From an uncultured Candidatus Saccharibacteria bacterium (lineage in GTDB: Bacteria > Patescibacteriota > Minisyncoccia > Phycocordibacterales > SBAW01), in the NCBI GenBank assembly GCA_964349675.1, contig CAYGHD010000001.1, positions 2,273 through 66,272 on the forward strand: a DNA stretch of 64,000 nucleotides, in the 5' to 3' direction. A program made the translations under genes and the position numbers. Shown here in pieces: positions 24,441-55,220 of this stretch (the stretch's first letter is position 1; each line of letters opens with the position of its first letter). Under the pieces are notes generated by a model. The model ran no database searches. It was not told where the DNA came from and saw only the letters and a program-made list of their open reading frames with translations.

Positions 24441-24449
24441 TAGGGATGT

Positions 24450-35431: not shown

Positions 35432-35447
35432 GTGCGGCGGGTGGCGG

Positions 35448-36080: not shown

Positions 36081-36155
36081 CTCCGAGACCTTTTTCTAAA
36101 TGTACAACGCGTCATTAATGTAACATATAAACTACAGTAGTCAATATGTGCTACT

Positions 36156-40165: not shown

Positions 40166-41395
40166 ATGCCAGACCATATTTACAAAACAACCTGTCGCAT
40201 TTGTGGAGGGTCGGACTTGGTGGAAATACTCGACCTGGGTACGACGCCTCCGGCAAATGCATATCGCAGCAAGGAAGAGTTGCTTTTGCCGGAAGCATCA
40301 TTCCCGCTCGTACTATATTTTTGCAACACCTGTTCACTCGCACAGCTGTTGCATGTGGTTAACCCAGAGATACTTTTTAAAAACTACCATTTTCTAACTG
40401 GTGCAAGCGCTCCGTCAATCGCGCATTTCCAGCAGTATGCTCAGCATGCCGTATTGCCGCATATTCAATCCCCAGAAGACTTGATTATCGATATCGGTGG
40501 GAACGACGGCGTATTATTGAGTTTTTTAAAAGACCATGCTCGGGTTTTAAATGTAGATCCAGCTGATAACTTGGCGGCGTTGTCGAATGCCAGAGGGGTG
40601 CCTTTTTATACAGCATTTTTTACGTCAGCGGTCGCTGATGAGTTGGTGACTCAGTATGGTCAAGCAAAAGTAATAACGGCCAATAACGTTTTCGCTCACA
40701 CCGACCCGCTTCAAGATGTTTTTGCGGGTGTTGCGTCGTTACTCAGAGAAGACGGTGTTTTTATTTTTGAAGTGCATTGGGCGAAGCATCTGCTTGCGGA
40801 TGGGTGCTTTGACCAGATGTACCATGAGCATCTCTGCTTCCACTCGCTCCATGCGCTGACTCGCTTGGTCGAGAACTCCGGTATGCATATTTTCGATGTA
40901 GAGATTGTCCCGATGCAAGGGCAGTCACTACGGGTGTATGTATCAAAACGATTGCCAAAAACAAGTCGGGTTGAAGCTATTCTCGCAGAAGAAAAAGCTG
41001 CCGGGCTGACCACCGCGGATGCGTTTCATGCCTTTGCTAAAACAGTGAGAGCAAACAAGGATGCGGTAGTGACTTTGCTTCAAAATCTTAAAGCGCAAGG
41101 TAAAAAAATCGTAGGGTACGGGGCGCCTGCAAAAGGGAATACGCTGCTTAACTATTACCAAATAGGCACAGAAACGCTCGACTACATAACCGACACCACG
41201 GTCTTAAAACAAGGACTCTATACGCCGGGGACGCATATCCCTATCGTGCCACCAGAGCGCCTCTATACTGAAACACCAGACTATGTGTTGCTGCTTGCGT
41301 GGAACTTCAAAGATGCGATTTTAGAAAAAGAAAAACCACTCAGAGATAAAGGAGTGCAGTTTATCATCACTGCCCCAGACATATCGACAGTGTAA
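40166..41395 (+). CDS. NDP-hexose C-methyltransferase-like SAM methyltransferase (paralog of 37002..38288)
   Basis: TTCRICGGSDLVEILDLG ... YFCNTCSLAQL (intact CxxC...CxxC zinc ribbon); C-terminal VGYGAPAKGNTLLNYYQI; same architecture as the gene at 37002. Confidence 0.55.
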   Translation: MPDHIYKTTCRICGGSDLVEILDLGTTPPANAYRSKEELLLPEASFPLVLYFCNTCSLAQLLHVVNPEILFKNYHFLTGASAPSIAHFQQYAQHAVLPHIQSPEDLIIDIGGNDGVLLSFLKDHARVLNVDPADNLAALSNARGVPFYTAFFTSAVADELVTQYGQAKVITANNVFAHTDPLQDVFAGVASLLREDGVFIFEVHWAKHLLADGCFDQMYHEHLCFHSLHALTRLVENSGMHIFDVEIVPMQGQSLRVYVSKRLPKTSRVEAILAEEKAAGLTTADAFHAFAKTVRANKDAVVTLLQNLKAQGKKIVGYGAPAKGNTLLNYYQIGTETLDYITDTTVLKQGLYTPGTHIPIVPPERLYTETPDYVLLLAWNFKDAILEKEKPLRDKGVQFIITAPDISTV

Positions 41396-43390: not shown

Positions 43391-44386
43391 ATGCGTAATA
43401 TCGTCAAAATCGGCCCCTATTTTGTGGGGGACGGGTATCCTGCTTTGGTGATTGCCGAAATCGGCATCAATCACAATGGGGACATGGATCTCTGCAAGGC
43501 GCTCATCGACCTTGCCGCCGATGCCGGGGCACACGTGGTGAAGTTCCAGAAGCGCTTTATTCCCAGCGTGTTTTCCGCGGAAGAGCTCAATCGTCCGCGC
43601 GACGTGCCACGCGACCTGTTGGAGAAGGCAATCGCGCGGAACGTTATGCCTGACGAAAACATCCGGCGTCTGCGGGAATCTGACTTCAAGGACACGCGCA
43701 ACGGCGACCAGAAGTATGCGTTGGAATTTTCTCTGGCAGAGTACGGAGAAATCGACGCGCACTGTAAGGTGAGGGGCCTGCTTTGGACGGCCTCACCATG
43801 GGACGCCTTGTCTGTCGGCTTCCTTTCGATGCTCGGTGTGCCTTTCTATAAGGTCGCGTCGGCTTCTTTGACCAACGATTTCTTGCTGGGGTGTATTGCT
43901 GCCACGGAGAAACCAGTCGTGCTCTCGACCGGCGGTTCGACCATGGCTATGATCCGCCATGCGGTTGGGCAGCTCGATCGATCCAAGCTGGTGATACTCC
44001 ACTGCACCGCGGCCTACCCCAAAGCAACGTCTTCTGAAGTCCTGGGGATGACCAATCTGCAGGCCATCCACACGCTCCAAAAGGAGTTTCCGGATGTGCC
44101 TATCGGCTTCTCGTCCAACAACTCGGGCATCATGCCCGTGTTCGCGGCGGTTGCCATGGGCGCGAGTATGGTCGAGGTGCACATCACTGCCAATCGGGAG
44201 CTATGGGGGAGCGATCAGGCCAGCTCTGTCGAGCCTACTGATTTTGCGAACCTCTGTCGCTGGGTCCGCGAACATCATCTCTCTCGTGGAGACGGGGTGA
44301 AGCGCGTGTATCCGGCGGAGCAGGAAGCCATGGACAAGCTCCGGACGAACTGGGGCGTCTGGCAGCCGACAGATCTTTTGGGGTGA
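43391..44386 (+). CDS. neuB: N-acetylneuraminate (nonulosonate) synthase family, PEP-condensing
   Basis: IGPYFVGDGYPALVIAEIGINHNGDMDLCKALIDLAADAGAHVVKFQKR is the NeuB/PseI/LegI N-terminal signature; 331 aa. Confidence 0.75.
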   Translation: MRNIVKIGPYFVGDGYPALVIAEIGINHNGDMDLCKALIDLAADAGAHVVKFQKRFIPSVFSAEELNRPRDVPRDLLEKAIARNVMPDENIRRLRESDFKDTRNGDQKYALEFSLAEYGEIDAHCKVRGLLWTASPWDALSVGFLSMLGVPFYKVASASLTNDFLLGCIAATEKPVVLSTGGSTMAMIRHAVGQLDRSKLVILHCTAAYPKATSSEVLGMTNLQAIHTLQKEFPDVPIGFSSNNSGIMPVFAAVAMGASMVEVHITANRELWGSDQASSVEPTDFANLCRWVREHHLSRGDGVKRVYPAEQEAMDKLRTNWGVWQPTDLLG

Positions 44387-44396
44387 ATCACTAGAG

Positions 44397-44426
44397 GTCG
44401 ACGCATTGCGTCGGCCTTTTTCTTTA
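44397..44426 (+). terminator. Rho-independent terminator after neuB
   Basis: ggtcgacgc-att-gcgtcggcc hairpin (9-bp stem, one G-U) followed by tttttcttt, 11 bp after the stop. Confidence 0.5.
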
Positions 44427-44441
44427 TAGAGGTCTTGTAGT

Positions 44442-45188
44442 ATGCTGCCAGGAATGGACGCATATGGACTCATACCAGCGCGCGGCGGTTCCAAAGGGGT
44501 ACCCCGCAAAAACCTACGCGAGCTTGCCGGGTTTCCGCTCATTGCGTATGCCATTGCCGCAAGTTTGCTGAGTCAAAAAATCACTCGCACTATCGTGAGT
44601 ACTGACGATGAAGAAATTGCTGCAGTAGCAAAACAGTTTGGTGCCGAGGTGCCGTTTTTGCGGCCAAGTGAGTTTGCGCGGGATGACTCTCCAGATTTAG
44701 AATTTGTCGAACATGCAATAGCCTGGCTGCGCGAGCATGAGGGCAAAGTCCCCGCCTATTTGGTAGAGCTGCGTGCAACAACGCCATTGCGTAAACCTCA
44801 AGATATTGACCACGCTGTAGCGCTCTTAGATGAGCATCCCGAAGCAACCTCACTGCGCTCTGGATATGAGATACGCGAATCTCCCTATAAATTATTTGGG
44901 ATCGTAGACGGATATTTCACGGGCCTTTTCCCAAATGACCCGCGTCCTGAGTATTACAACTTGCCACGGCAGTCGTTTCCTCCCGTGTATCAGCCAGACG
45001 GGTATGTTGATATTTTAAAAACAAATTATATTGAGGCGAATCATCGCCAACATGGAGACAAAATATTGGCATTTCCCTGCCAAAATACGGGCGAGGTGGA
45101 TACACAAGGAGACTTCGAATTTTTGGAATTTAAAATTAAAAACGATACATGGGAGGTGTATGAGTATTTGCGCAAACACTTCTCCTAA
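44442..45188 (+). CDS. neuA: Acylneuraminate cytidylyltransferase family (CMP-nonulosonate synthetase)
   Basis: GLIPARGGSKGVPRKNLRELAGFPLIAYAI is the NeuA/PseF/LegF-type P-loop; alternative start at 44454. Confidence 0.7.
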   Translation: MLPGMDAYGLIPARGGSKGVPRKNLRELAGFPLIAYAIAASLLSQKITRTIVSTDDEEIAAVAKQFGAEVPFLRPSEFARDDSPDLEFVEHAIAWLREHEGKVPAYLVELRATTPLRKPQDIDHAVALLDEHPEATSLRSGYEIRESPYKLFGIVDGYFTGLFPNDPRPEYYNLPRQSFPPVYQPDGYVDILKTNYIEANHRQHGDKILAFPCQNTGEVDTQGDFEFLEFKIKNDTWEVYEYLRKHFS

Positions 45189-46438
45189 TCTTTGTAGGTA
45201 TTGATGATGTCTTGAATGACTAAGAGGGCTTCTTTGAGCGCTTCGGGAGTAATGGTAAGCGGCGGTGCAAGTTTAATCGAGTTCCTGTTGGTGCATACGG
45301 GGAGCACTCCTTGTTTGATACATTCGTGCACCACAGCAGTGGCAACTTCTGCTTTTTCAAAAATAAGCCCAGCAATAAGGCCGCGTACATTCACGTGTGT
45401 TATGAGCGGAGATGCTTCTAGTTTTTTGAGCTCTTTTTCAAACAAAGGAACAGTTTTTTTGCGCCGCGCAACCTCTGTTTTTGAGCTTAAGAATGTACTA
45501 TTTGCCAACGCTGCCGCAGTGCACACAGGGTTTGCTGAATGAGTGCTGTGCAAGTCTGCGCTAGGGTCGATGTTAAAGAGCTCTTTTCGCGAGAGCACCA
45601 CTGAAAGGGGAAGGGATGAAGAGACTCCTTTTCCCAACGCTACAATATCTGGCGTAAGGTCGCCGTAGGTCATATACCCAAACAAAGGTCCCATGCGATA
45701 CATGCCCGCTTGCATCTCGTCAAAGGCAAGCAGTGCGCCGTTTTGTTTTGCAAAGTGCGCGAGGTCGTTTACAAAAGGCTTCGGATACATCCAAGCGCCC
45801 CATCCTTGAAATGTTTCAAGCACAAATCCCGCGATTTCATTTTTTGGCGGCAATACTTTTGGATCGAATGCGACGGTTTGGTCATATGGAAAGTCGAGGA
45901 ACACAACCGCATCATCTTTGACGCCAGACCACGCAGCTTTCTTTTTGCTTCCAGAGATAAGGTCGTTGCTCAGTCCGCGGCCATGATAGCTGCCATTGAA
46001 TGTAATGATATATTTTTTGCCTGTTTTTTTACCGTACAGTTTAATGAGTTTATGCGCAGTGTCCATTGCCTCAGATCCTGAATTGAGCAGTGTGAGCGTG
46101 TCGAAGTGTTTCGGCGCGAGCGAGAGTAACTTGGTGATGAATCGCTCTTTGATTTTGGTCGGATAGTTGTAGGCAAAAAGCAAATCTGCATCGAGCTGTT
46201 TTTTTATAGCCTGTTTGATATGCGGGTTTGCATGCCCTGCATTGGCCACAAATATCCCGGAAGTTAAGTCTATCCATTTGTTACCCTTGTCGTCCCATAC
46301 GGAAAAGTCTTTTGCTTTGTGCCATGTCAGCGGGATGCTGTTGTGGGTCGACAGCGGCTCGTGGGCGCTAATCTTTCGGTCGAGCAGATTTTTATCCAAG
46401 GAAAAAGAAGGGGAGACGTTTCGATATTTTGTCTTCAT
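45185..46438 (-). CDS. Class-III PLP-dependent aminotransferase (acetylornithine/GABA-AT family)
   Basis: LNSGSEAMDTAHKLIKLYG ... ITFNGSYHGR ... FDEMQAGMYRMGPLFGY ... ALGKGVSSSLPLSVV: class III aminotransferase motifs. Confidence 0.7.
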   Translation of the reverse strand: MKTKYRNVSPSFSLDKNLLDRKISAHEPLSTHNSIPLTWHKAKDFSVWDDKGNKWIDLTSGIFVANAGHANPHIKQAIKKQLDADLLFAYNYPTKIKERFITKLLSLAPKHFDTLTLLNSGSEAMDTAHKLIKLYGKKTGKKYIITFNGSYHGRGLSNDLISGSKKKAAWSGVKDDAVVFLDFPYDQTVAFDPKVLPPKNEIAGFVLETFQGWGAWMYPKPFVNDLAHFAKQNGALLAFDEMQAGMYRMGPLFGYMTYGDLTPDIVALGKGVSSSLPLSVVLSRKELFNIDPSADLHSTHSANPVCTAAALANSTFLSSKTEVARRKKTVPLFEKELKKLEASPLITHVNVRGLIAGLIFEKAEVATAVVHECIKQGVLPVCTNRNSIKLAPPLTITPEALKEALLVIQDIINTYKD

Positions 46439-46468
46439 ATACGCTCGATTGTAGGCTATGATGTGCCT

Positions 46469-47407
46469 ATGTACAACTCGCCGACGCCAGGATTTTTGGG
46501 GGCGACCGGGTTGCCCGTGTCTCGCTTGGGGCTCGGCACAGCGGAGATAGGTTTTGCGTACGGGCTGGGAAACCCGCGGCTCCCTAATGAGTCAGATGCT
46601 CTAGAACTTCTCACAGAAGCGGTGCGTCTTGGCGTTACTTTTTTTGATACTGCCAATTATTACGGACTCGCAGAAGAGCGCATCGGCAAATCGGGTATTC
46701 TGAAAGATACTCGTGTCGTGGTATGCACTAAGTGCGCGCAGTTTTTAGAGCAGGGAGAATATTTTTCCCCCGAGGTGTTGGAGCAAAAAATCCGTGCCCA
46801 AATAGAAAGTAGTCGAAAAAATTTAGGGCTCGATGTGCTCCCTTTGGTGTTGATACACGGACCCTCAAAAGAGCAGGTAGAGGAAGGGGTGCTTATCCAT
46901 ATCATGGAAACGCTGCGCGCCGAAGGAAAATTGCGTGTCTGGGGCGCATCAACGCGAGGTATTGCGCCGCCGCAGGCACTTATGGCACGTGATGTGCCAG
47001 TATTGGAGCTTGCCTACAATGTGGCAGACAAGCGCATGGACGCAGTATTGCAGGAAGCGCGACAAAAAAACGTAGGCATCATTAATCGCTCTGTGTATTT
47101 AAAAGGAGTTTTTGCTGGCAAGGCAGTTTTTTTGCCCGACACACTCCTTCCGCTTAAAAACATTGTGCAAGAAGCAGAATCTTGCGCTCAAGAAGCGGGT
47201 ATCCCTCTGTGGGAGCTTGCACTACGGTATACGCTCTCGGAGCCAGCGATACACACCACGCTTGTGGGGACTGCAAAAAAGGCTCACTTGCTGCAGGCAG
47301 TTGAAGCGTTTGCAAAAGGCCCACTACCAAAAGATATATGCGAGCGGCTTCGTGTGCATGCAAGTGCAGATGCGCTGCAAGTTGACCCAGCAGAGTGGCC
47401 AAAATAA
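46469..47407 (+). CDS. Aldo/keto reductase family oxidoreductase
   Basis: LPVSRLGLGTAEIGFAYGLG ... FFDTANYYG ... LIHGP: AKR hallmarks; start at ATG 46469 (the upstream part of the ORF overlaps the divergent aminotransferase gene). Confidence 0.7.
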   Translation: MYNSPTPGFLGATGLPVSRLGLGTAEIGFAYGLGNPRLPNESDALELLTEAVRLGVTFFDTANYYGLAEERIGKSGILKDTRVVVCTKCAQFLEQGEYFSPEVLEQKIRAQIESSRKNLGLDVLPLVLIHGPSKEQVEEGVLIHIMETLRAEGKLRVWGASTRGIAPPQALMARDVPVLELAYNVADKRMDAVLQEARQKNVGIINRSVYLKGVFAGKAVFLPDTLLPLKNIVQEAESCAQEAGIPLWELALRYTLSEPAIHTTLVGTAKKAHLLQAVEAFAKGPLPKDICERLRVHASADALQVDPAEWPK

Positions 47408-47411
47408 TACT

Positions 47412-48248
47412 ATGAAAGAATTGTATGAGCTCGGTATTGTGCGCCACGCGGAACCTTTTTTCCCAAGAACAAGAGACCGTGCAGATATTGCGGTGCTTAA
47501 AGATGAGGCGGGAGTAATTTTTTTGAATAGCACTGACCATATGGATTTAGCGCACTACCAAGGTCTATCTATTGCAGAAACATGGGGTGCAAAAGAGCGA
47601 ACGGAAGCGCTTGCAGCAACACGCGACGATGATACGCGGCGGGCAGCGTATGTGTCTGCGCTGCGCCCAAAACGCTATATCGACGTCGGCTGTGGGCTCG
47701 GCGGCACTATGGAACTGTTGGTGGGAGAGATTCCAGAGATACATGGTGTAGAGCCACAGGCGGATATTCTGGCTTTACTCAAAAGCCGTTTTACTATGTA
47801 TACGTCAATTGACGACGTATCCGGGCAGTTTGATGTCGCCTCGTTATTTCATGTATTCGAGCATTTGACTGAACCTATGGCTATGCTCAAAAAAGTGCAC
47901 GAACGACTGGTGCCAGGTGGGCGAGTCATTATTGAGGTGCCACATGCGCGTGATGCACTGCTTGCACTTGATGCATTTAAAGCGTTTAGTCTCTGGAGCG
48001 AGCACTTGGTGTTGCATACGCGGCAGAGCCTTGCCATATATTTAGAAAAAGCAGGGTTTCATACTATTGAGATCAAAGGAGTGCAGCGCTACCCGCTGGC
48101 CAATCATCTGCGCTGGTTGGTAGAAGGTTTGCCGGGCGGACAAAAAACACTGTCGCAGTATGCTGATCCAACACTAGCTGCCGCATATGAGGCGTACTTG
48201 GTTGCACATGACTCGACTGATACACTTTTGGCTATCGCACAAAAATAA
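47412..48248 (+). CDS. Class I SAM-dependent methyltransferase
   Basis: YIDVGCGLGGTMELL (motif I) and RLVPGGRVIIEVP (motif III); start at ATG 47412, just after the AKR stop. Confidence 0.6.
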   Translation: MKELYELGIVRHAEPFFPRTRDRADIAVLKDEAGVIFLNSTDHMDLAHYQGLSIAETWGAKERTEALAATRDDDTRRAAYVSALRPKRYIDVGCGLGGTMELLVGEIPEIHGVEPQADILALLKSRFTMYTSIDDVSGQFDVASLFHVFEHLTEPMAMLKKVHERLVPGGRVIIEVPHARDALLALDAFKAFSLWSEHLVLHTRQSLAIYLEKAGFHTIEIKGVQRYPLANHLRWLVEGLPGGQKTLSQYADPTLAAAYEAYLVAHDSTDTLLAIAQK

Positions 48249-49060
48249 TGCTTATGCAAAAACTTTCTATCGGTATGGTGCAGGGTCGGCTCACGCCATC
48301 GAAGGGCAGGGGCATTCAATTTTTCCCAAACCAAGAGGGTGAGTGGGAGAAAGAATTTGCCCGTGCGGCAGAGCTTGGGATACAGCATATACAGTGGGCT
48401 TTTGAGACAGTCGACAACCCACTTCTTTTGCCTGAGACGCAAGCACGTGTACGCGCTGCTGTAGCAAAAACAGGAGTGCCTGTGTGGCACATGGATATGC
48501 AATTGCTCACGAGTGTCGACATTAGCGCTTGCGGCGACGTGTGGATGCAGAGTGTGTGCGAGGCGCTTGCGGCTGTCGACGGACAAACAGTTGAAGTGCC
48601 GCTTATGGAAGCGTCTTCACTGCTCGACGTGTCTATGCGTGAGCAACGAGTAGCGGCTCTAAGGCGGTTTATGCACGCAGCAGCTGCCGCAGGCATTTCT
48701 CTTGCTGTTGAAACCGATTTGCCGCCAAAAGAATATACTGCGTTGCTTGAGCAGTGCCCGCTAGGTGCTGTGTATGATGCTGGCAATAGTGCGGGGATGG
48801 GATATCTGGTAGACGAAGAATTTGCCGCATATGGCGCTTCAGTGGTCAATGTACACATAAAAGATAAGAAAAAAGGCGGTGTGACCGTCCCGCTTGGGAG
48901 TGGGGATGCCGACCTTAAACGCCTGTTTCAATTATTGCGCAAGGTGCCGTATACTGGCCCTGTTACGCTGCAAGCCGCCCGCGGAGAGGACGGTAAAGAA
49001 GCGGAGACTATTCAGCATTATATTGATTTTATCAACGCTCAATATGAACAATCTTTTTGA
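48248..49060 (+). CDS. Sugar phosphate isomerase/epimerase-like TIM-barrel protein
   Basis: Weak match: IQHIQWAFE ... VNVHIKD ... pattern of the xylose-isomerase-like TIM-barrel family; 270 aa. Confidence 0.4.
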   Translation: MLMQKLSIGMVQGRLTPSKGRGIQFFPNQEGEWEKEFARAAELGIQHIQWAFETVDNPLLLPETQARVRAAVAKTGVPVWHMDMQLLTSVDISACGDVWMQSVCEALAAVDGQTVEVPLMEASSLLDVSMREQRVAALRRFMHAAAAAGISLAVETDLPPKEYTALLEQCPLGAVYDAGNSAGMGYLVDEEFAAYGASVVNVHIKDKKKGGVTVPLGSGDADLKRLFQLLRKVPYTGPVTLQAARGEDGKEAETIQHYIDFINAQYEQSF

Positions 49061-49784
49061 TATCACAGGTAACGTTGTGGTGATTACGGGCGGCAGCGGC
49101 TTTTTGGGTACGCAATATAGAGAGTCGTTGGCTGCGGCGGGTGCTCTGGTAGAAAATTTTGACGTGGATACGGGTGTTGATGTGACCCATGAAGTCTCTC
49201 TAACAGAGGCTGTTGCGCGTGTTGTGGCAAAACACGGCAAGATAGACGGTCTCATTACCAATGCTGCGGCAAATCCAAAAGCAGATGAAAACACTGGAGC
49301 GGGCCCCTGGTCTGCATACAGTGATTTCCCAGCGGAACTCTTTCGGCAAGAGCTTGATTTAAATTTGGTCGGCTCGTTTCTTGCTGCAAAAATTGTTTCA
49401 AAAGAGATGATCCGGCAGAAAAAAGGTTCTATTGTTTTCATCTCGTCTGACCTAGGGCTCATTGGTCCGACAAATACGCTTTACCCTGACGGCCAATATA
49501 AAGATATAGCCTACGGTGCATCCAAAGCGGGGGTGCTTGGGTTGATGCGTTTTTTTGCAGCATATCTTGGCGCGTACGGGGTGCGGGCAAACGCGATGGT
49601 TCCTGGTGGGATGTTGCGCGGGCATAGTGATGAGTTTGCAAAAAAGAACGGCTCGCTCAATATGCTTGGTCGTATGGCTCATGAGGGAGAATACAACGGT
49701 GCAATACAGTTTTTGCTTTCAGACGCGTCAAGCTATATGACTGGTGCACCACTTATTATTGATGGAGGAAGAACTGCTGTATGA
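49044..49784 (+). CDS. Short-chain dehydrogenase/reductase (SDR)
   Basis: VVVITGGSGFLGTQY (TGxxxGxG) ... YGASKAGVLGLMRFFA (YxxxK); start at ATG 49044. Confidence 0.65.
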   Translation: MNNLFDITGNVVVITGGSGFLGTQYRESLAAAGALVENFDVDTGVDVTHEVSLTEAVARVVAKHGKIDGLITNAAANPKADENTGAGPWSAYSDFPAELFRQELDLNLVGSFLAAKIVSKEMIRQKKGSIVFISSDLGLIGPTNTLYPDGQYKDIAYGASKAGVLGLMRFFAAYLGAYGVRANAMVPGGMLRGHSDEFAKKNGSLNMLGRMAHEGEYNGAIQFLLSDASSYMTGAPLIIDGGRTAV

Positions 49785-51622
49785 ATGTCCTTGGATTGAA
49801 AGTTGGCGGGCATGACCCAGGTGCCGCGCTCATATCAAATAATGGCGGCACTACTCGCGTATGTGCGATTGCAGAAGAGCGACTGACGCGCGTCAAACAT
49901 GCGCCGCATGCGTTCCCGACACAATCAATCGTGTATGTGTTGGAGAATCTTGGAATACCAAAAGAGGATATCGACTTGATCGTGTATGACACCACTATCG
50001 ACGAAGTGCAATTTACAAATGAGGTGGAGTCGACAAGGTGGGTCAAAGAGCGGGTGGGTGCAGGGTTTACAAAAGCTCAGTTTGTGGGGGTTGGACATCA
50101 TGATGCACATGCAGCGACCGCTTTTTTCTGCTCGCCGTACGAAGAGTCTGCGGTGCTTGTGTATGACGGGAGCGGTGCTATTTTCCCCAGTCCGCAGGGT
50201 GGCATGGTGACGGAGACGGAAACTTTTTACAAAGGCAAGGGTAGTACCCTTACGGTAATACATAAAACTGCGCATGTGTGCACGCCGGCCGGGTTTCCCT
50301 ACAGTGTGGGGATTGGCCGTCTCTACTCAAACTTGTCTCAAAATTATATTTCGTTTGGGCCGCACAATGAGGGGAAGATGATGGGGCTCGCCGCATATGG
50401 AGACGACTCATTTCTGAAAGCGTTTCCGTATGAGCGCTGGGTCAAACGCTACAACGGGGAATTGTTGTGCAATAACCAAGTGAGTTATCCCATGCGTGGA
50501 GCGACTGCGTTTATAAAGCGATCGGGGAGTCCCACACGTCTCCTGCTCGATGTGTATAATGGGGTACTGTCTCGCGGCCGGCGATTATTTTTTAAAGCAA
50601 CTACAGTAGTCACCGGCCGGCTTGGCGCTGAAGCAGTGTATCCAAAAATATTTGAGCCGATACGATTTGCTCGGCCAAACCGCGATGCGGGTGCAGAAAA
50701 GCTCCCGGATGCATACTTCAGCTCAGTTGCATTTGCCGCGCAAAAAATATTTGAACAATATGCAATAGAACTTGGTACATATCTTAAAAATGTCACAGAG
50801 AGTGATACGTTGTGTGTGGCTGGCGGGTGTGCGCTCAACATTGATGCAAACAGAAATTTTTTAACAAAAGTCGGGTTCAAAAACTTGTTTGTACAGCCAG
50901 CGTCCTCTGACTGCGGCATCCCGCTGGGGTGCGCGCTGTGGGGCATGCATGCGGTGCTTGGTCAACCACGTGCGTGGGTGATGCAATCTGCGTCGCTTGG
51001 AAAACCATACAGCAAAACAGAAGTAGAAAAAGCTATTGCTGCGCGCAAAGACGAGGTGGAATATCAGTATGTTGACGATGCGCCCAAAGAAGCAGCTCGT
51101 TTGATTGCAGATGGGAACATCATTGGTTGGTTTCAGGGCGGGGCAGAGTATGGGCCGCGTGCGCTTGGCAACCGGTCAATTGTCTGCGATGCGCGGGGCA
51201 AGGATATGAAAGATGTCTTGAACAACCGAGTCAAACATCGAGAATCGTGGCGGCCATTCGCAGCATCAATTTTGCTTGAAAAAATGTCGGAGTGGTTTGA
51301 CTTCAGTACGGAGAGTCCCTATATGTTGCTGACGGGAAGTGTGCTGCCGCATAAACGAAAGGATGTTCCGTCCATTGTGCATGTCGATGGCACCTGCCGG
51401 TTACAGTCACTGACTGAAACGCAAAACGGCCCCTATTGGGCGCTTGTAAAAGAATTCGAAGCATGTACTGGCGTACCGCTTGTGCTCAACACGTCATTTA
51501 ACCTCGGCGGCGATCCTATTGTAGAGACGCCGGAAGATGCACTTGATACATTTTTGCGCACAGATATGGATTACTTGGTTATGGAGCATGCGGTCATACG
51601 AAAGCGCGGAGCAAAGAAATAA
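49781..51622 (+). CDS. Carbamoyltransferase (NodU/CmcH family O-carbamoyltransferase)
   Basis: MNVLGLKVGGHDPGAALISNNGG ... GVGHHDAHAATAFF ... C-terminal domain with HVDGTCRLQ; 613 aa; ATGA overlap with the SDR stop. Confidence 0.75.
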   Translation: MNVLGLKVGGHDPGAALISNNGGTTRVCAIAEERLTRVKHAPHAFPTQSIVYVLENLGIPKEDIDLIVYDTTIDEVQFTNEVESTRWVKERVGAGFTKAQFVGVGHHDAHAATAFFCSPYEESAVLVYDGSGAIFPSPQGGMVTETETFYKGKGSTLTVIHKTAHVCTPAGFPYSVGIGRLYSNLSQNYISFGPHNEGKMMGLAAYGDDSFLKAFPYERWVKRYNGELLCNNQVSYPMRGATAFIKRSGSPTRLLLDVYNGVLSRGRRLFFKATTVVTGRLGAEAVYPKIFEPIRFARPNRDAGAEKLPDAYFSSVAFAAQKIFEQYAIELGTYLKNVTESDTLCVAGGCALNIDANRNFLTKVGFKNLFVQPASSDCGIPLGCALWGMHAVLGQPRAWVMQSASLGKPYSKTEVEKAIAARKDEVEYQYVDDAPKEAARLIADGNIIGWFQGGAEYGPRALGNRSIVCDARGKDMKDVLNNRVKHRESWRPFAASILLEKMSEWFDFSTESPYMLLTGSVLPHKRKDVPSIVHVDGTCRLQSLTETQNGPYWALVKEFEACTGVPLVLNTSFNLGGDPIVETPEDALDTFLRTDMDYLVMEHAVIRKRGAKK

Positions 51623-51680
51623 TTGACGTAAAACAAATTTTGTTCTATTTTGTAGACGGAACATACGAAAGGTTCAAAAC

Positions 51681-52205
51681 ATGTTTTTTGCAGATCAAGG
51701 GGTCATGGGGCGCGCCAAAGAGGTGGAGCTCGTGTGCTTGGATTTTGATGGCACACTGACCGACGGCATGGTGTACGTTGACGAGACGGGCTGCGAGACA
51801 GTCCGCTGCAGCCGGCGGGATAGCCTGGGTATCGAGATGCTCAAGGCGGCAGGTATTGCGGTCTTCGTGATCTCGAAAGAGACAAACCCGGTTGTTGCTG
51901 CGCGTTGTAAAAAAATGAACGTGCGGTGTGAACAAGGAGTGGCTTCGGGAGAGGATAAGGCTGTAATCCTTCGGCGCCTTGCCGAAGGTGTCGGTGTGAA
52001 GCTCGAAGCGATTGCCTACATGGGCGACGATGTGAACGACATCGCTGCGCTGCAGTTGGTTGGTCTCGCGGTGGCTCCTGCCGACGCGCATCCAAAGGTG
52101 CGCAAAGTAGCCCACCATTTGACGGAGGCTCGGGGCGGCAACCACGCGGTGCGTGAGCTCTGCGACCTCATTCTTGAGGCGCAAGGGAAGTCCTCTGATA
52201 TGTAG
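51681..52205 (+). CDS. HAD-IIIA KdsC-family sugar-acid phosphate phosphatase (Kdo-8-P / nonulosonate-9-P phosphatase-like)
   Basis: VELVCLDFDGTLTDG (DxDGT motif I) ... VFVISKE ... YMGDDVNDIAAL; 174 aa as in KdsC/KDN-9-P phosphatases. Confidence 0.65.
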   Translation: MFFADQGVMGRAKEVELVCLDFDGTLTDGMVYVDETGCETVRCSRRDSLGIEMLKAAGIAVFVISKETNPVVAARCKKMNVRCEQGVASGEDKAVILRRLAEGVGVKLEAIAYMGDDVNDIAALQLVGLAVAPADAHPKVRKVAHHLTEARGGNHAVRELCDLILEAQGKSSDM

Positions 52206-52255
52206 CGGTTATCCACAATTCCGGAGATGCGATCTCCGGAGAAACAAAGGAGTCG

Positions 52256-53284
52256 TTGATGGAAAAGACATTTCTCGCTTTTGCGAGAGACATGGGTGCT
52301 GCCAACACGGTGGTGCCTATTGCGATACAGTTGAGAACGCTCGGACACACCGTCTTCATCTGCCTCGACCAAGGCGGCAAAGCGGTAGAGCAGTATCCGT
52401 CATTCACGGCGGTATATCAGCCAGCATACTTCAATTATCTTCTGGGTCAGCGCAAAGTAGATGCGATTCTCAACGGGCTCTCATCGCCGCGCGGCGACCT
52501 GGAGCTCTGGCTGGACGCCAATGCTCCGCTGCTGCGCGACACTCCACTGCTGGTGCAGTGTGAAGACTATTGGGGCGCGCACACGCGTTCGAGGGTGGCT
52601 CCTGATGCGCTCATCACAATTGACAACACGGCGCGGAGATTGGCTCGAGCCGCTGGCGTACGTTCGCGGATATGCACTGCAGGATTTGCCGGCGTCTCTC
52701 CGGTAGATCCAAGTGCGCATATTCAGCTCGTGATGCAGCAGCATCGCGCACAGACGCCCGGTGTGCAGATCTTGGTGTACCCAGATGGTGGACCAGAATG
52801 TGAGCTCGCGCTCCCTCGGCTCGTTGAGTCGATTTTGCAGACACGTGCGCCGGTTATGCTGGTCCCAAAATTCCATCCAAAGTTCAAAAAGGTGAGGCAT
52901 CCGCGGGGCGGCACATGGGATCAATGGTGCCGGCAACAGTTGGTACCGCTGTACAATGCGGACAAGGTCATCGATGTTGAAGGTCCCACCAATCAAGTCA
53001 TCGCCTGCGCTGACGGTGTCGCATCCGGGTATTCAACGCTTTTGATGCGGCCGGCGACTACAGGCAAGCTCGCGCTCACGCTTTGGGACGGGGCAGTCGA
53101 AACAGAGCTCCGCAAGGAGACAGGTCTCGCGCAGACCCCGCTTATGCTGCAGCGCAAGCGCTTCCCGTACCTGACGAGCGTCATGCCGCTCGATGAGTTC
53201 TTTACTGTCGCACAGCCGACGCTCGCTTTGCCGCCCCTACAGCCGGGCAAAGCAGCTGACTTTGTGCTCTCGCTCCTGACGTAG
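52256..53284 (+). CDS. Hypothetical protein (342 aa), GC-rich; possible GT-B-like or epimerase-like fold
   Basis: No motif confidently recognised; followed by tandem terminators. Confidence 0.3.
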   Translation: MMEKTFLAFARDMGAANTVVPIAIQLRTLGHTVFICLDQGGKAVEQYPSFTAVYQPAYFNYLLGQRKVDAILNGLSSPRGDLELWLDANAPLLRDTPLLVQCEDYWGAHTRSRVAPDALITIDNTARRLARAAGVRSRICTAGFAGVSPVDPSAHIQLVMQQHRAQTPGVQILVYPDGGPECELALPRLVESILQTRAPVMLVPKFHPKFKKVRHPRGGTWDQWCRQQLVPLYNADKVIDVEGPTNQVIACADGVASGYSTLLMRPATTGKLALTLWDGAVETELRKETGLAQTPLMLQRKRFPYLTSVMPLDEFFTVAQPTLALPPLQPGKAADFVLSLLT

Positions 53285-53290
53285 TGGGGC

Positions 53291-53361
53291 ACGCCGCCGT
53301 AACCTTTTGTGATACGGCGGCGTTTTCTTTATTAAGTGTAGCCCGCATGCTACACTTTTTT
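53291..53361 (+). terminator. Tandem Rho-independent terminators
   Basis: Hairpin 1: acgccgccgta...tacggcggcgt + ttttcttt (53291-53330). Hairpin 2: gtgtagc-ccgcat-gctacac + tttttt (53336-53361). Confidence 0.55.
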
Positions 53362-53406: not shown

Positions 53407-55176
53407 ATGAGCATATTTGCAACGGTCCGCACACTCTGGCGCGCATTTAGCCGGTATCGTTGGCACTTAGGAGTGCTTATTATATTAGGTTTTTTGGGCG
53501 CAATACTTGAAGGCATCGGCATCAATGCAGCGATTCCACTCGTCTCTTTTTTTAACGGTGGTACCGGCGCGCCGACTGACTTCATCACGAGCACCATCAA
53601 AAGTCTCTTTGACTTCTTTTCAATCCCGTTTACCTTCCGGTATCTGCTCGCATTTATTTTGAGCCTCTTTTTATTGCGTGCAGTTGCAGTTGTTATTTTT
53701 GGATATATACGCGGATGGGTAGTAACTGATTATTTGTGCGAAGAGAGCGAGGATATGTTGCGCCGCACCATGCTTGCCTCCTGGCCGTTTTTGCTCAAGC
53801 AAAAAATAGGGACACTGCACAACACGCTCGCGCGCGATATCCAGCGTGCGGCAAGTTTGCTTGAAGTGCAGGGGCAAATAATCCAGTCCTTCGGCGGATT
53901 CCTCATGTATTTACTGGTTGCGGTCAATATTTCGCCCACCATGACGCTCTATACGCTTGCGGGTGCAGCCGTGCTATTGCTTGTAGTGCGTCCATTTTTA
54001 TTGCGGACACAACGCATGGGTCAGGAGATGGCGCAGACAGAAAAGAGTCTCGCGCAGTTTTTGACCGAACATATCACCGGCATGAAGTCGATAAAAGCTG
54101 CGGGTGTGGAGCGGCCAGCGCTGCGCGCGGGCAATGCTTTTTTGCGTGCCATGCGCAAACTCTCGCTTAAAATGACTCTGGTGCGTGCAGTCAGTGCGAG
54201 CTTGTTTCAACCGTTCAGTCTCTTATTTGTCATAGCGCTGTTTGCAGTGACCTATAAAACGCCGGGATTCAGCATTATCTCTTTTGCAGCGACACTCTAC
54301 CTCATTCAAAAAATATTTACCTATCTGGAGTCTGGGCAGAGCGCGTTGCAGAGCTTGAGCGAACTCCTACCTTATGCAGACAATGTGTCGCAATGGAAGG
54401 AAAAATTGGGGGAGCATCGAGAAGAAGTGACCCGGGGCAGTAATGCTTTCTCGTTTGAAAAAACAATAACACTCAATCATATTTCTTTCGCGTACACGCC
54501 AGAGCGGTCGATTCTGTCCGATGCAACCATTGAGATCAAGAAAGGCTCTATCACCGGGCTTGTTGGGCCGTCGGGCGCAGGCAAAACATCTGCGGCAGAT
54601 CTGTTGCTGCGCCTTTTTACCCCAACGCAAGGGGATGTGTTGGTGGACGGTGTGTCGGTGGACGATATTGGACTTGATGCATGGCGGCACAACATTGGCT
54701 ATGTATCCCAGGACGTATTTTTGTTCAATGGGACGATAGCAGAGAATATCCGATTTTACCGCAACCTTTCTAAAGAGGCGGTGGTGGCTGCGGCAAAGCA
54801 AGCGCATGTATACGACTTTGTTTCATCTCTGCCGGATGGATTTGAGACTGTCGTGGGTGACCGCGGTGTGCTGTTATCGGGCGGCCAGCGGCAGCGCATT
54901 GCGCTTGCTCGCGCGCTTGTGGGGCAGCCAGCGCTATTGGTGCTCGACGAGGCAACCAGTGCGCTTGATCATGAGTCAGAAAAACTCATCCAAGACGCAA
55001 TCCAGGCGCTTCGGGGCACAACTACGGTGTTTGTTATCGCGCACCGCCCGTCGACTATTGCTGCCGCAGACTCGATTGTGGTGCTTGACCGTGGCAGCGT
55101 GGTTGAGCAGGGGGCTCCGGCCGAGCTGCTCAAAAATAAAGACTCATATTTTGCCCATATGCAAGCGCGAGCATAA
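53407..55176 (+). CDS. ABC exporter, fused permease plus ATPase (MsbA/PglK-type)
   Basis: Six N-terminal TM helices; Walker A GPSGAGKTS; signature LSGGQRQRIALARAL; Walker B LLVLDEATSALD; H-loop IAHR. Confidence 0.8.
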   Translation: MSIFATVRTLWRAFSRYRWHLGVLIILGFLGAILEGIGINAAIPLVSFFNGGTGAPTDFITSTIKSLFDFFSIPFTFRYLLAFILSLFLLRAVAVVIFGYIRGWVVTDYLCEESEDMLRRTMLASWPFLLKQKIGTLHNTLARDIQRAASLLEVQGQIIQSFGGFLMYLLVAVNISPTMTLYTLAGAAVLLLVVRPFLLRTQRMGQEMAQTEKSLAQFLTEHITGMKSIKAAGVERPALRAGNAFLRAMRKLSLKMTLVRAVSASLFQPFSLLFVIALFAVTYKTPGFSIISFAATLYLIQKIFTYLESGQSALQSLSELLPYADNVSQWKEKLGEHREEVTRGSNAFSFEKTITLNHISFAYTPERSILSDATIEIKKGSITGLVGPSGAGKTSAADLLLRLFTPTQGDVLVDGVSVDDIGLDAWRHNIGYVSQDVFLFNGTIAENIRFYRNLSKEAVVAAAKQAHVYDFVSSLPDGFETVVGDRGVLLSGGQRQRIALARALVGQPALLVLDEATSALDHESEKLIQDAIQALRGTTTVFVIAHRPSTIAAADSIVVLDRGSVVEQGAPAELLKNKDSYFAHMQARA

Positions 55177-55220
55177 CGGGTTTCGTAGTGTTGAAAATAG
55201 TCTGGTATAGTGGGGGACAT

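What the first reader, a model, noticed from the sequence alone, without database searches (positions are those of the whole stretch)
43391..53361. Predicted nonulosonic-acid pathway via a 9-phosphate route with unusual tailoring enzymes (carbamoyl, amino, methyl)
Within 10 kb lie a NeuB-family PEP-condensing synthase, a NeuA-type CMP-sugar synthetase and a KdsC-family HAD phosphatase. Synthase plus KdsC-like phosphatase is the architecture of phosphorylated routes (Neu5Ac-9-P / KDN-9-P, as in the Bacteroides KDN pathway), not the PseBCHGI/LegBCHGI routes. No DegT aminotransferase, PseH/LegH acetyltransferase or NeuC-like gene is visible in this module. Interleaved instead are a class-III aminotransferase (unusual for sugar pathways), a NodU/CmcH carbamoyltransferase, a SAM methyltransferase, an AKR, an SDR, a TIM-barrel isomerase-like protein and a 342-aa unknown. 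This suggests a CMP-activated 9-carbon (or Kdo-like) sugar acid that is aminated, O-carbamoylated or methylated by a non-canonical enzyme set.
Basis: partly seen in the sequence, partly recalled or inferred. Interest (0 to 1): 0.75.

Follow-up and report, generated by a model that had tools for sequence, protein, structure and literature searches.

The report
Tailored CMP-ulosonic acid pathway, CPR bacterium
An ultra-small uncultured bacterium (Patescibacteria) carries a conserved gene cassette that most likely builds a sialic-acid-like acidic sugar from a phosphorylated sugar, decorates it (amino, methyl, carbamoyl groups), activates it with CMP and puts it on the cell surface; the basic route is a known type, but this decorated version and its host group have not been described.

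Summary

The adjacency is not accidental. The block NeuB-like synthase / CMP-transferase / class-III aminotransferase (minus strand) / aldo-keto reductase recurs in six independent metagenomic loci at 59-81% synthase identity. An SDR plus TIM-barrel pair accompanies it throughout. The carbamoyltransferase is found in five loci of the clade and the 342-aa unknown in seven cassette loci.

The phosphorylated route is well supported:
- The synthase lacks the SAF domain.
- A KdsC-type HAD lies within 300 bp of its homologues in 59 of 80 genomes from many phyla.
- Relatives carry CMP-transferase–HAD, HAD–SIS and NeuB–SIS fusions.

The host is a Patescibacteria (Adlerbacteria-like) bacterium, and the cassette sits in a ~46-kb glycan island.

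New details:
- The synthase clade has a ~26-aa loop insertion, and Asn replaces one metal-site histidine.
- The 342-aa unknown is a GT-B-fold protein of a family with no Pfam model.
- The CMP-transferase subtype tracks the aminotransferase, which suggests amination after condensation and before activation.

Chain length (C8, C9 or C10) and the exact substitution sites remain unknown.

Verdict: a new variant of a known kind, of moderate interest.

The parts
41406..43316 (+). 636-aa TagF-like (Glyphos_transf) GT-B protein; candidate CMP-ulosonate transferase or polymerase
   Evidence: Pfam Glyphos_transf 25.7 bits, above the cut-off of 22.1. Faint sub-threshold hits to the BFO_1060 glycosyltransferase family and TIGR04396; the L093 homologue scores higher on both. 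Homologues sit directly upstream of the synthase in L005, L008, L012, L089, L093 and L095 at 28-74% identity. In other loci a Capsule_synth (KpsC/S-like) protein takes this place.
43391..44386 (+). NeuB-family PEP-condensing synthase without a SAF domain ('NeuB*'), with a loop insertion and Asn at a metal-site histidine
   Evidence: PF03102 189.8 bits. TIGR03569 209 bits, below the cut-off of 399. Best PDB match is 6ncs, a 290-aa SAF-less synthase. Relative to SAF-less relatives it has ~26 extra residues after the KFQKR motif. N243 aligns with N. meningitidis NeuB His215.
44442..45188 (+). CMP-ulosonate synthetase (NeuA/PseF-like cytidylyltransferase)
   Evidence: CTP_transf_3 80 bits. PseF model 116 bits, KdsB models 31-48 bits, all below their cut-offs. 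Identity to the window protein is at least 57% in every locus that also has an aminotransferase, and at most 48% elsewhere.
45185..46438 (-). Class-III (omega-type) aminotransferase
   Evidence: Aminotran_3 219 bits. Nearest are the acetylornithine/ornithine/GABA aminotransferases, well below their cut-offs. The PLP lysine K270 and D240/Q243 are conserved. The usual carboxylate-binding Arg position is Lys389, invariant in 5 homologues. Same position and strand in L005, L007, L089, L094 and L095 at 64-89% identity.
46469..47407 (+). Aldo-keto reductase
   Evidence: Aldo_ket_red 117 bits. 57-69% identical homologues follow the aminotransferase in L005, L007, L089, L094 and L095. In L020 a homologue sits in a CTP-AKR-HAD-TIM-SDR-NeuB* operon.
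47412..48248 (+). SAM-dependent methyltransferase (part of the core cassette)
   Evidence: Methyltransf_23 73 bits. Homologues at 42-48% identity lie in the compact cassettes of L012 and L093, where L093 reads NeuB-MT-HAD-CTP.
48248..49060 (+). AP_endonuc_2 (xylose-isomerase-like) TIM barrel; probable sugar or sugar-phosphate epimerase, isomerase or dehydratase
   Evidence: PF01261 53 bits. The only specific similarity is weak, to L-ribulose-5-P 3-epimerase UlaE (the L020 homologue aligns full-length at 44 bits). It is always paired with the SDR.
49044..49784 (+). Classical short-chain dehydrogenase (sugar / sugar-acid dehydrogenase-like)
   Evidence: adh_short_C2 116 bits. Best models are gluconate 5-dehydrogenase, KduD, sorbitol-6-P dehydrogenase and mannonate oxidoreductase. 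It is not an extended NDP-sugar SDR. A homologue lies within 10 kb of NeuB* in 41 of 80 genomes.
49781..51622 (+). NodU/CmcH-type carbamoyltransferase
   Evidence: Carbam_trans_C 222 bits and Carbam_trans_N 115 bits. Homologues in L005 (89%), L095 (67%), L008 (32%) and L089 (31%). Absent from L007, L091 and L093.
51681..52205 (+). KdsC/YrbI-family (C0-type) HAD phosphatase
   Evidence: TIGR01670 115 bits, above the cut-off of 106.95. KdsC equivalog 131 bits (cut-off 208) and KDN-9-P phosphatase equivalog 106 bits (cut-off 180) are both missed. PDB matches: KdsC structures 99-112 bits, BT1713 83.5 bits.
52256..53284 (+). GT-B-fold protein of a family without a Pfam model ('unk342'); part of the core cassette
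53407..55176 (+). MsbA/PglK-like half-ABC transporter; probable flippase or exporter for the lipid-linked glycan
   Evidence: ABC_membrane + ABC_tran. Homologues at 40-97% identity adjoin the cassette in L005, L008, L012, L090, L092, L093 and L094.
55188..57494 (+). Wzy_C (O-antigen ligase / PglL-type) membrane protein with C-terminal TPR repeats; probable final glycan transfer step
   Evidence: Wzy_C 80 bits plus TPR families. The same protein type follows the cassette in L091, L092 and L093.

Best explanation
The module is a conserved biosynthetic cassette of a Patescibacteria (CPR) bacterium for a CMP-activated, tailored 3-deoxy-2-ulosonic acid. The sugar is made at the sugar-phosphate or free-sugar level, not through NDP-sugar intermediates.

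Core steps (inferred from family membership, synteny and gene fusions):
1. The SAF-less NeuB-type synthase condenses PEP with an aldose omega-phosphate. Man-6-P, giving a KDN-type C9 acid, is the default guess.
2. The KdsC-type HAD removes the terminal phosphate.
3. The NeuA/PseF-like enzyme makes the CMP-sugar.
4. The upstream TagF-like GT-B protein, possibly with the GT-B 'unk342', transfers it to a lipid-linked glycan.
5. The adjacent PglK/MsbA-like ABC protein and the Wzy_C-TPR protein then export and attach the glycan.

Tailoring steps (more speculative):
- The classical SDR, the TIM-barrel enzyme and the AKR oxidise, epimerise or dehydrate, and re-reduce the free or phosphorylated sugar acid.
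- The class-III aminotransferase converts a carbonyl made this way into an amine. A terminal aldehyde is the most likely substrate, as in Kdo8N. This happens after condensation and before CMP activation.
- The methyltransferase adds a methyl group. It belongs to the core of the cassette.
- The NodU-type enzyme adds a carbamoyl group. It is an accessory part.
For: Gene identities.

Host: SecA is 73-80% identical to Adlerbacteria/Paceibacterota proteins.

Conserved cassette:
- L005 is identical in order.
- L089 carries all 11 genes.
- L007, L094 and L095 carry the NeuB*-CTP-AT3(-)-AKR block plus TIM, and L007 and L095 also SDR; the L094 contig ends just after TIM.
- L008 has a class-IV aminotransferase in the same slot.
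- L093 and L091 are compact cores without AT3, AKR, SDR, TIM or CarbT.
- L020 is a tight operon CTP-AKR-HAD-TIM-SDR-NeuB*.

Phospho-route:
- A KdsC-type HAD lies within 300 bp of NeuB* in 59 of 80 genome loci across many phyla.
- Divergent KdsC/KDN-9-P-phosphatase-family HADs are present in L008, L089, L091 and L093.
- Fusions occur: CTP_transf_3-HAD (L014, L046), HAD-GmhA-like SIS (L075) and NeuB-SIS (P0114).
- This gives the order isomerase, synthase, phosphatase, cytidylyltransferase, as in KdsD/A/C/B and in the characterised B. thetaiotaomicron and Prymnesium KDN-9-P route (PMC6200933).

Free-sugar level: the SDR is of the classical sugar-acid/polyol type, the AKR and the AP_endonuc_2 TIM barrel are typical of free or phosphorylated sugars, and there is no extended SDR or DegT in the module.

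Timing of amination: the CTP subtype tracks the presence of an aminotransferase independently of the NeuB* lineage.

Transferase: TagF-like or Capsule_synth-like proteins flank NeuB*/CTP in many loci.
Against: - No enzyme reaches an equivalog cut-off, so no substrate is established.
- The window cassette has no SIS isomerase and no obvious source of the aldose phosphate.
- One metal-site histidine of the synthase is Asn, so activity or metal use may differ.
- L007 shows no HAD within 10 kb.
- unk342 resembles NeuC/GNE-type 2-epimerases in structure, which would suit a nucleotide-sugar-derived free aldose instead.
- The order and positions of the oxidation, amination, methylation and carbamoylation steps rest on inference only.
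- CarbT lies in different places in L008 and L095, and might serve another sugar of the island.
Confidence: 0.72

Rival explanations
1. Nucleotide-sugar route. unk342 is a very divergent NeuC/LegG/PseG-like hydrolysing 2-epimerase or NDP-sugar hydrolase. It releases a free aldose, which NeuB* condenses with PEP without any phosphate. The HAD serves another step, or another pathway such as heptose.
Confidence: 0.1
2. The product is not a nine-carbon acid. It would be an eight-carbon Kdo-like acid from arabinose-5-P, or a ten-carbon acid from D-glycero-D-manno-heptose-7-P, made by the same phospho-route.
For: The window HAD scores higher against KdsC (131 bits) than against the KDN-9-P phosphatase model (106 bits). 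The SIS domains fused or adjacent to NeuB*/HAD in relatives are GmhA-like: TIGR00441 172-181 bits, just below the cut-off of 209. CMP-activated C10 ulosonic acids of unknown origin were reported in Magnetospirillum (bioRxiv 10.64898/2026.04.20.719630).
Against: The only characterised SAF-less/phospho-route NeuB enzymes use Man-6-P (PMC6200933). HADs of the closest relatives score slightly higher against the KDN-9-P phosphatase model. In L090, and partly in L092, the heptose-type genes (SIS in L090 only, PfkB, CTP_transf_like; GT9 in L090) look like an ordinary ADP-heptose pathway. The window has no SIS gene.
Confidence: 0.25
3. Part of the tailoring set, especially the carbamoyltransferase and perhaps the methyltransferase, does not act on the ulosonic acid. 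It would modify other sugars of the 46-kb glycan island and merely be co-located.
For: CarbT is absent from L007, L091 and L093. It lies 5 kb upstream among GT genes in L008, and upstream of NeuB* in L095. The island encodes many other sugars and methyltransferases.
Against: In the window and L005, CarbT overlaps the SDR stop codon by 4 nt, which suggests translational coupling. It is present in 5 of 9 loci of the clade. The ~280-aa MT lies inside the minimal cassette of L093, between NeuB and HAD.
Confidence: 0.3

Closest known systems
KDN-9-phosphate pathway of Bacteroides thetaiotaomicron (BT1714 synthase, BT1713 phosphatase, CMP-KDN synthetase) and Prymnesium parvum
   Same: A NeuB-family synthase is paired with a C0-type KdsC-like HAD phosphatase and a CMP-transferase. 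The logic is phosphorylated aldose + PEP, then dephosphorylation, then CMP activation (PMC6200933).
   Different: The window HAD and synthase are below all equivalog cut-offs. The synthase has an extra ~26-aa loop and Asn at the His215 position. The cassette adds AT3, AKR, SDR, TIM, MT and CarbT, none of which belong to the KDN pathway.
Kdo pathway KdsD-KdsA-KdsC-KdsB
   Same: The four-step logic is the same. Relatives have a SIS isomerase and a KdsC-type phosphatase, sometimes fused to each other or to the other enzymes.
   Different: The condensing enzyme is NeuB-type (PF03102), not the DAHP-synthase-type KdsA. The cytidylyltransferase is closer to PseF/NeuA than to KdsB. The SIS is GmhA-like, not KdsD-like.
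Kdo8N formation in Shewanella (KdnB oxidase + KdnA aminotransferase acting on free Kdo before CMP activation; recalled from Gattis et al. 2013, not checked here)
   Same: The proposed logic matches: oxidation of a hydroxyl of the free ulosonic acid, then transamination before activation. A cytidylyltransferase subtype co-inherited with the aminotransferase fits this.
   Different: The enzyme families differ: an SDR/AKR and a class-III (or, in L008, class-IV) aminotransferase are used here. The position of the amino group is unknown.
Pseudaminic / legionaminic acid pathways (PseBCHGIF, LegBCHGIF)
   Same: A NeuB-family synthase, a CTP_transf_3 activator and an aminated final product. L007 carries such a canonical SAF-containing cluster right next to the cassette.
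   Different: The module has no extended-SDR dehydratase, DegT aminotransferase or N-acetyltransferase. The synthase has no SAF domain. A phosphatase is present.
Kdn-containing teichulosonic acids of Actinobacteria, and KpsC/KpsS beta-Kdo transferases
   Same: TagF-like or Capsule_synth-like GT-B proteins flank the synthase and CMP-transferase, which suggests a polymer or linker of ulosonic acid. A Streptomyces locus is among the SAF-less NeuB + HAD hits (L069).
   Different: No teichulosonic acid or Kdo linker has been shown for CPR bacteria. The window's 636-aa protein only just passes the Glyphos_transf threshold.

Membership tests
NeuB / nonulosonic acid synthase family (PF03102) | NeuB TIM-barrel domain above the Pfam gathering score | tested here: met
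   189.8 bits against a cut-off of 22.1.
NeuB / nonulosonic acid synthase family (PF03102) | C-terminal SAF (antifreeze-like) domain supplying Arg314 to the sugar site | tested here: not met
   No SAF hit. The protein ends about 13 residues after the linker motif GDGxKRVYPxE..KLR.
NeuB / nonulosonic acid synthase family (PF03102) | Equivalog level for Neu5Ac synthase (TIGR03569) or pseudaminic acid synthase (TIGR03586) | tested here: not met
   209 bits against 399.65, and 155 bits against 340.25.
NeuB / nonulosonic acid synthase family (PF03102) | Catalytic-site residues of N. meningitidis NeuB (Glu25, Gln55, Lys129, Tyr186, Ser213, His215, Glu234, His236) | tested here: inconclusive
   E23, Q53, K154, Y209, S241, E262 and H264 are conserved. 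His215 is Asn243 in the window and in 54 of 200 family members. E134 is S159 and N184 is A207 (residue list from PMC6795526).
Phosphorylated KDN/Neu5Ac-9-P type route | Synthase genetically coupled to a C0-type KdsC-like HAD phosphatase | tested here: met
   A HAD is in the cassette. A HAD lies within 300 bp of NeuB* in 59 of 80 genomes. CTP-HAD and HAD-SIS fusions occur.
Phosphorylated KDN/Neu5Ac-9-P type route | Phosphatase is an equivalog of KDN-9-P phosphatase (NF058599) | tested here: not met
   105.6 bits against a cut-off of 180. It passes only the YrbI subfamily model.
Phosphorylated KDN/Neu5Ac-9-P type route | Synthase uses Man-6-P or ManNAc-6-P and yields a 9-phosphate | not testable with these tools
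   This needs an enzyme assay. Only family-level inference is available.
Kdo pathway (KdsA/KdsB/KdsC) | KdsA-type (DAHP-synthase family) condensing enzyme and KdsB equivalog | tested here: not met
   The synthase is PF03102. KdsB models score 31-48 bits against cut-offs of 155-281. The KdsC equivalog scores 131 bits against 208.
Pse/Leg NDP-sugar routes | Extended-SDR 4,6-dehydratase, DegT aminotransferase, N-acetyltransferase and NDP-sugar hydrolase/2-epimerase in the module | tested here: not met
   None is found by Pfam in 43391-53284. unk342 is GT-B and epimerase-like by structure only, which is inconclusive.
NodU/CmcH carbamoyltransferases | Carbam_trans_N plus Carbam_trans_C domains | tested here: met
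   115 and 222 bits. The NodU equivalog is not met: 146 bits against 1000.
UDP-GlcNAc 2-epimerase family (Epimerase_2), for unk342 | Sequence-profile membership (PF02350) and catalytic acid/base residues | tested here: inconclusive

The most novel reading that the evidence does not exclude
The cassette makes an ulosonic acid not yet in the chemical catalogue. This would be an amino-, methyl- and carbamoyl-substituted KDN-like acid, or a C10 homologue, built entirely from sugar phosphates and free sugar acids. It would involve three unusual components:
- a class-III aminotransferase;
- a NeuB clade in which a metal-site His is replaced by Asn, which may mark a change in metal dependence comparable to the two KDO8P synthase classes;
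- a new GT-B family (unk342) as its dedicated transferase or precursor enzyme.

The sugar would cap the surface glycan of Patescibacteria, whose cell envelopes are almost uncharacterised.
Probability: 0.4. Interest if true: 0.72.

Novelty: new variant of a known kind. Interest (0 to 1): 0.55.

Why it matters
Patescibacteria (CPR) are a large share of bacterial diversity. They live attached to other cells, and almost nothing is known of their surface chemistry. This bacterium devotes about 46 kb to one glycan island, while a near-identical relative's contig is only 547 kb.

The work points to several testable results:
- A conserved, modular route to a decorated sialic-acid-like sugar would give a concrete handle on CPR surfaces: a CMP-sugar detectable by mass spectrometry, and enzymes that can be expressed.
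- It would assign a function to the widespread 'SAF-less NeuB + KdsC-like HAD' gene pair, which a large NeuB survey noted only as an unexplained 'environmental' group (PMC8208679).
- It would supply new enzymes for making modified ulosonic acids: a class-III aminotransferase, a carbamoyltransferase and a new GT-B family.

Tried and rejected
- TIM barrel structure. A single-sequence AlphaFold model failed (pLDDT 42), so no fold search was run on it. Locus-derived homologues may not be submitted to that tool.
- The afdb50 fold library was unavailable.
- hhalign of the unk342 family against one Epimerase_2 protein and one GT4 protein: both insignificant.
- Pfam scan of distant unk342 relatives: only faint, mixed GT-B hits.
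- Use of L086 (labelled Muribaculaceae) as a stand-in for BT1713/BT1714. Its HAD is not a KDN-9-P phosphatase equivalog (108 bits against 180) and its neighbours are FliO and TPR genes, so it was not used.
- Literature searches for Patescibacteria or CPR with nonulosonic acid, sialic acid synthase or neuB, and for nonulosonic acid with carbamoyltransferase, found nothing relevant.
- I first took the His-to-Asn change to be at NmNeuB His236, and a His-to-Gln change in L007 to be at a metal ligand. Recounting the alignment shows that Asn243 aligns with His215 and that the other position is His181, which is not a ligand. This is corrected here.
- I first read the GmhA-like SIS next to the cassette in L008 as part of the pathway. 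In L090 it sits with ADP-heptose genes, so for the CPR loci its link is uncertain. The fusions in other phyla do support a link there.
- LPS/O-antigen reading of the GT9, MsbA-like and Wzy_C genes. This was set aside because the host is a Patescibacteria bacterium.

Full report
**1. Observation**

- a NeuB-domain protein, 43391-44386;
- a CTP_transf_3 cytidylyltransferase, 44442-45188;
- a class-III aminotransferase on the minus strand, 45185-46438;
- an aldo-keto reductase, 46469-47407;
- a Methyltransf_23 enzyme, 47412-48248;
- an AP_endonuc_2 TIM barrel, 48248-49060;
- a classical SDR, 49044-49784;
- a NodU/CmcH-type carbamoyltransferase, 49781-51622;
- a KdsC/YrbI-family HAD, 51681-52205;
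- a 341/342-aa protein without any Pfam or NCBIfam hit, 52256-53284.

Three starts are later than the longest ORFs. The corrected starts match the gene calls on the source contig. The genes from the AKR to the carbamoyltransferase abut or overlap by a few bases, as in an operon.

**2. Setting**

SecA at 60313-62817 is 73-80% identical to proteins named Candidatus Adlerbacteria / Paceibacterota / Parcubacteria. The window therefore comes from a Patescibacteria (CPR) bacterium. It matches a 71-kb ENA metagenome contig. Near-identical proteins lie on a 547-kb JGI contig.

The module is the distal part of a ~46-kb glycan island running from about 11.4 to 57.5 kb. The island holds:
- many GT4, GT2, GT9 and GT47-like transferases;
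- GDP-mannose dehydratase plus DegT;
- rmlBACD;
- two sugar C-methyltransferases.

Downstream of the module lie an MsbA/PglK-like ABC protein and a Wzy_C-TPR protein. The island is flanked by murD/murC on one side and murB/secA on the other. In a CPR bacterium these 'LPS-like' genes more likely serve a lipid-linked glycan that is flipped and then ligated to a protein or lipid acceptor.

**3. The adjacency is conserved**

Exact look-ups of homologues of the synthase gave independent contigs.
- L005 (81% synthase identity) has the identical gene order.
- L089 (64%) has all eleven genes from the TagF-like protein to unk342.
- L007, L094 and L095 (59-61%) repeat the block synthase / CMP-transferase / class-III aminotransferase (minus strand) / AKR. 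Identities are 65-70% for the CMP-transferase, 68-72% for the aminotransferase and 57-62% for the AKR. All three also carry the TIM barrel, and L007 and L095 the SDR; the L094 contig ends just after TIM.
- L008 (59%) has a class-IV aminotransferase in the slot between synthase and CMP-transferase.
- The carbamoyltransferase recurs in L005, L008, L089 and L095.
- unk342 recurs in L005, L089, L091, L092, L093 and L094.
- A TagF-like 630-650-aa protein precedes the synthase in L005, L008, L012, L089, L093 and L095.

Two compact loci define a core. L093 reads TagF-like / NeuB / MT / HAD / CTP / unk342, and L091 is similar. Neither has the aminotransferase, AKR, SDR, TIM barrel or carbamoyltransferase.

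The cassette is therefore modular:
- core A: transferase, synthase, methyltransferase, phosphatase, cytidylyltransferase, unk342;
- module B: class-III aminotransferase + AKR;
- module C: TIM barrel + SDR;
- module D: carbamoyltransferase.

**4. The phosphorylated route**

The synthase belongs to a large family of SAF-less NeuB proteins of about 290-330 aa. Its best solved relative is the 290-aa SAF-less 6ncs.

A scan of one genome per species returned 80 loci from many groups: Chloroflexota, Nitrospirota, Acidobacteriota, Melainabacteria, Planctomycetota, Actinomycetota, Patescibacteria and others.
- In 59 of the 80 loci, a homologue of the window's HAD lies within 300 bp of the synthase gene. 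In 67 it lies within 10 kb.
- Relatives carry a CTP_transf_3–KdsC-like HAD fusion (L014, L046).
- Relatives carry a KdsC-like HAD–GmhA-like SIS fusion (L075).
- Relatives carry a NeuB–SIS fusion (P0114).

These fusions link a sugar-phosphate isomerase, the synthase, the phosphatase and the cytidylyltransferase into one pathway. This is the logic of KdsD/A/C/B. It is also the logic of the characterised KDN-9-P route of B. thetaiotaomicron and Prymnesium, where the synthase accepts only Man-6-P (PMC6200933).

The HADs of the closest relatives are divergent, but their best matches are the KdsC and KDN-9-P phosphatase models. I rate the phospho-route as well supported, though not demonstrated.

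The identity of the aldose phosphate is open:
- The window HAD scores a little higher against KdsC than against the KDN-9-P phosphatase model, and reaches neither equivalog cut-off.
- The associated SIS domains are GmhA-like. A GmhA-like isomerase could give Man-6-P from Fru-6-P, or heptose-7-P from sedoheptulose-7-P.
- The window itself has no SIS gene.

**5. Peculiarities of this synthase clade**

Compared with other SAF-less members, 116 of 200 aligned sequences have about 26 extra residues after the KFQKR strand. These are mostly CPR sequences, and the insertion is rich in invariant Arg, Lys, Asn and Asp. This is the beta2-alpha2 region. A review-type statement in PMC8208679 links an 'alpha2beta2 loop' of the human enzyme to use of the phosphorylated substrate. 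I could not test whether the two loops are equivalent.

In 54 of the 200 sequences, including the window and all AT3-bearing loci except L021, Asn replaces the residue aligned with N. meningitidis His215. His215 lies in the SDH motif and is listed among the catalytic-site residues in PMC6795526; from memory of Gunawan et al. 2005 it is a Mn2+ ligand. Glu234 and His236 are kept.

The family is strongly conserved, so it is presumably active. Metal use may differ.

**6. What the tailoring enzymes suggest**

The SDR is of the classical type. Its best matches are gluconate-5-, KduD-, mannonate- and sorbitol-6-P-type dehydrogenases. The AKR and the AP_endonuc_2 barrel also belong to families that work on free or phosphorylated sugars and keto-sugar acids. 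The barrel's only specific similarity is to UlaE-type ketose-phosphate 3-epimerases. No extended SDR, DegT or acetyltransferase is present. The chemistry is therefore not that of the Pse/Leg NDP-sugar routes.

SDR homologues accompany the synthase in 41 of 80 genomes, and the TIM barrel in 12. In the Peribacteria locus L020, CTP-AKR-HAD-TIM-SDR-NeuB* form one tight operon. These enzymes are thus tied to the ulosonic acid itself, even where no aminotransferase is present.

Class-III and class-IV aminotransferases are the two fold types that supply omega-transaminases (established knowledge). Their interchange in the same slot (L008) suggests amination of an aldehyde or ketone rather than of an alpha-keto acid.

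The subtype of the cytidylyltransferase follows the aminotransferase, not the synthase lineage:
- All seven loci with an aminotransferase have a CMP-transferase at least 57% identical to the window's.
- Loci without an aminotransferase have at most 48%.
- L090 and L091 have a 57-60% identical synthase but a CMP-transferase only 34% identical.
- L021 has a 46% identical synthase, of the short, His-bearing type, yet a 57% identical CMP-transferase and an AT3.

The simplest reading is that amination happens after condensation and before CMP activation, on the dephosphorylated acid. As I recall, this is how Kdo8N is made. The position of the amine is inferred, not shown. So are the roles of SDR/TIM/AKR (oxidation, epimerisation or dehydration, re-reduction) and the targets of the methyl- and carbamoyltransferases.

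**7. The 342-aa unknown**

Only 12 word-indexed homologues exist among 5.8 billion proteins. A full HMM search finds 575 cluster representatives. None has a significant Pfam domain.

The protein has a conserved K-x-H-P-K segment. This recalls the 'HP' motif of bacterial sialyltransferases, but that is from memory and was not tested.

I leave it as a GT-B enzyme of the core cassette. It is either a CMP-ulosonate transferase or a NeuC/PseG-like precursor enzyme. The second option underlies the main rival explanation.

**8. Comparison with known systems, and novelty**

The core is a member-like variant of the KDN-9-P/Kdo-type phospho-route. No defining equivalog threshold is met, so I do not file it as 'the KDN pathway'. 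The tailoring set has no described counterpart in the searched literature, and nothing was found on ulosonic acids in Patescibacteria. SAF-less NeuB proteins have been noted only as an unexplained 'environmental' group (PMC8208679).

It is a new variant of a known kind. Interest is 0.55. It would be higher if the product proves to be a new amino/carbamoyl ulosonic acid or a C10 acid.

Noticed in passing
window 11428-57494: The finding is the tail of a ~46-kb glycan island. It holds GT4/GT2/GT9/GT47-like transferases, Gmd+DegT, TylF-type MT, rmlBACD and two sugar C-methyltransferases. It is flanked by murD/murC and murB/secA. The host is a CPR bacterium whose near-identical relative sits on a contig of only 547 kb.
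   Followed up: partly
window 43391-44386, 51681-52205, 52256-53284: The synthase, HAD and unk342 genes have GC 0.58. The other module genes have 0.47-0.51. The same trend appears in L005, L089, L091 and L008. The cause may be mosaic origin or amino-acid composition; it is unexplained.
   Followed up: partly
window 44117-44119 (Asn243 of the synthase): Asn replaces the residue aligned with N. meningitidis NeuB His215. This holds in 54 of 200 family members, which form the clade that carries the aminotransferase module. It may mark a change in metal dependence.
   Followed up: partly
window 37002-38288 and 40220-41395 (with 33106-36977): Two TylC3/NovU-like sugar C-methyltransferases (Methyltransf_14) lie next to rmlBACD, an NAD-epimerase (38285-39214, minus strand) and a GT2. 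This is probably a separate dTDP-linked, C-methyl-branched deoxysugar pathway. The arrangement is conserved in L005, L089 and L095.
   Followed up: no
window 23400-25649: GDP-mannose 4,6-dehydratase followed by a DegT aminotransferase, a GDP-perosamine-type pair. It implies that the cell makes GDP-mannose, and hence mannose phosphates.
   Followed up: no
window 145-3828, 8729-10558, 10455-11390: Three genes unrelated to the finding: a 1227-aa protein with a reprolysin-like metallopeptidase segment, a TraG/TrwB-like type-IV coupling ATPase, and a lamin-tail-domain protein.
   Followed up: no
L007 1-9916 (GCA_030674455.1): A canonical SAF-containing NeuB with its own cytidylyltransferase, two DegT genes, a formyltransferase and HisH/HisF-like amidotransferase genes sits directly upstream of the SAF-less cassette. 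One CPR genome therefore encodes two different ulosonic acid pathways side by side.
   Followed up: no
L017, L034, L037, L046, L055 (Chloroflexota MAGs): A recurrent cassette: MT / TagF-like / CTP / CTP-HAD fusion / NeuB* / TIM / GFO_IDH / SDR / GmhA-like SIS. It is often followed by a second SAF-less NeuB and a Capsule_synth protein. Anaerolineales versions add sulfotransferase and ATP-sulfurylase/APS-kinase genes, which hints at sulfated ulosonic-acid glycans.
   Followed up: partly
window 35448-36080 (-), 12625-13572, 13839-14510, 29431-30312: ORFs inside the glycan island with no Pfam hit. Their function is unknown.
   Followed up: no
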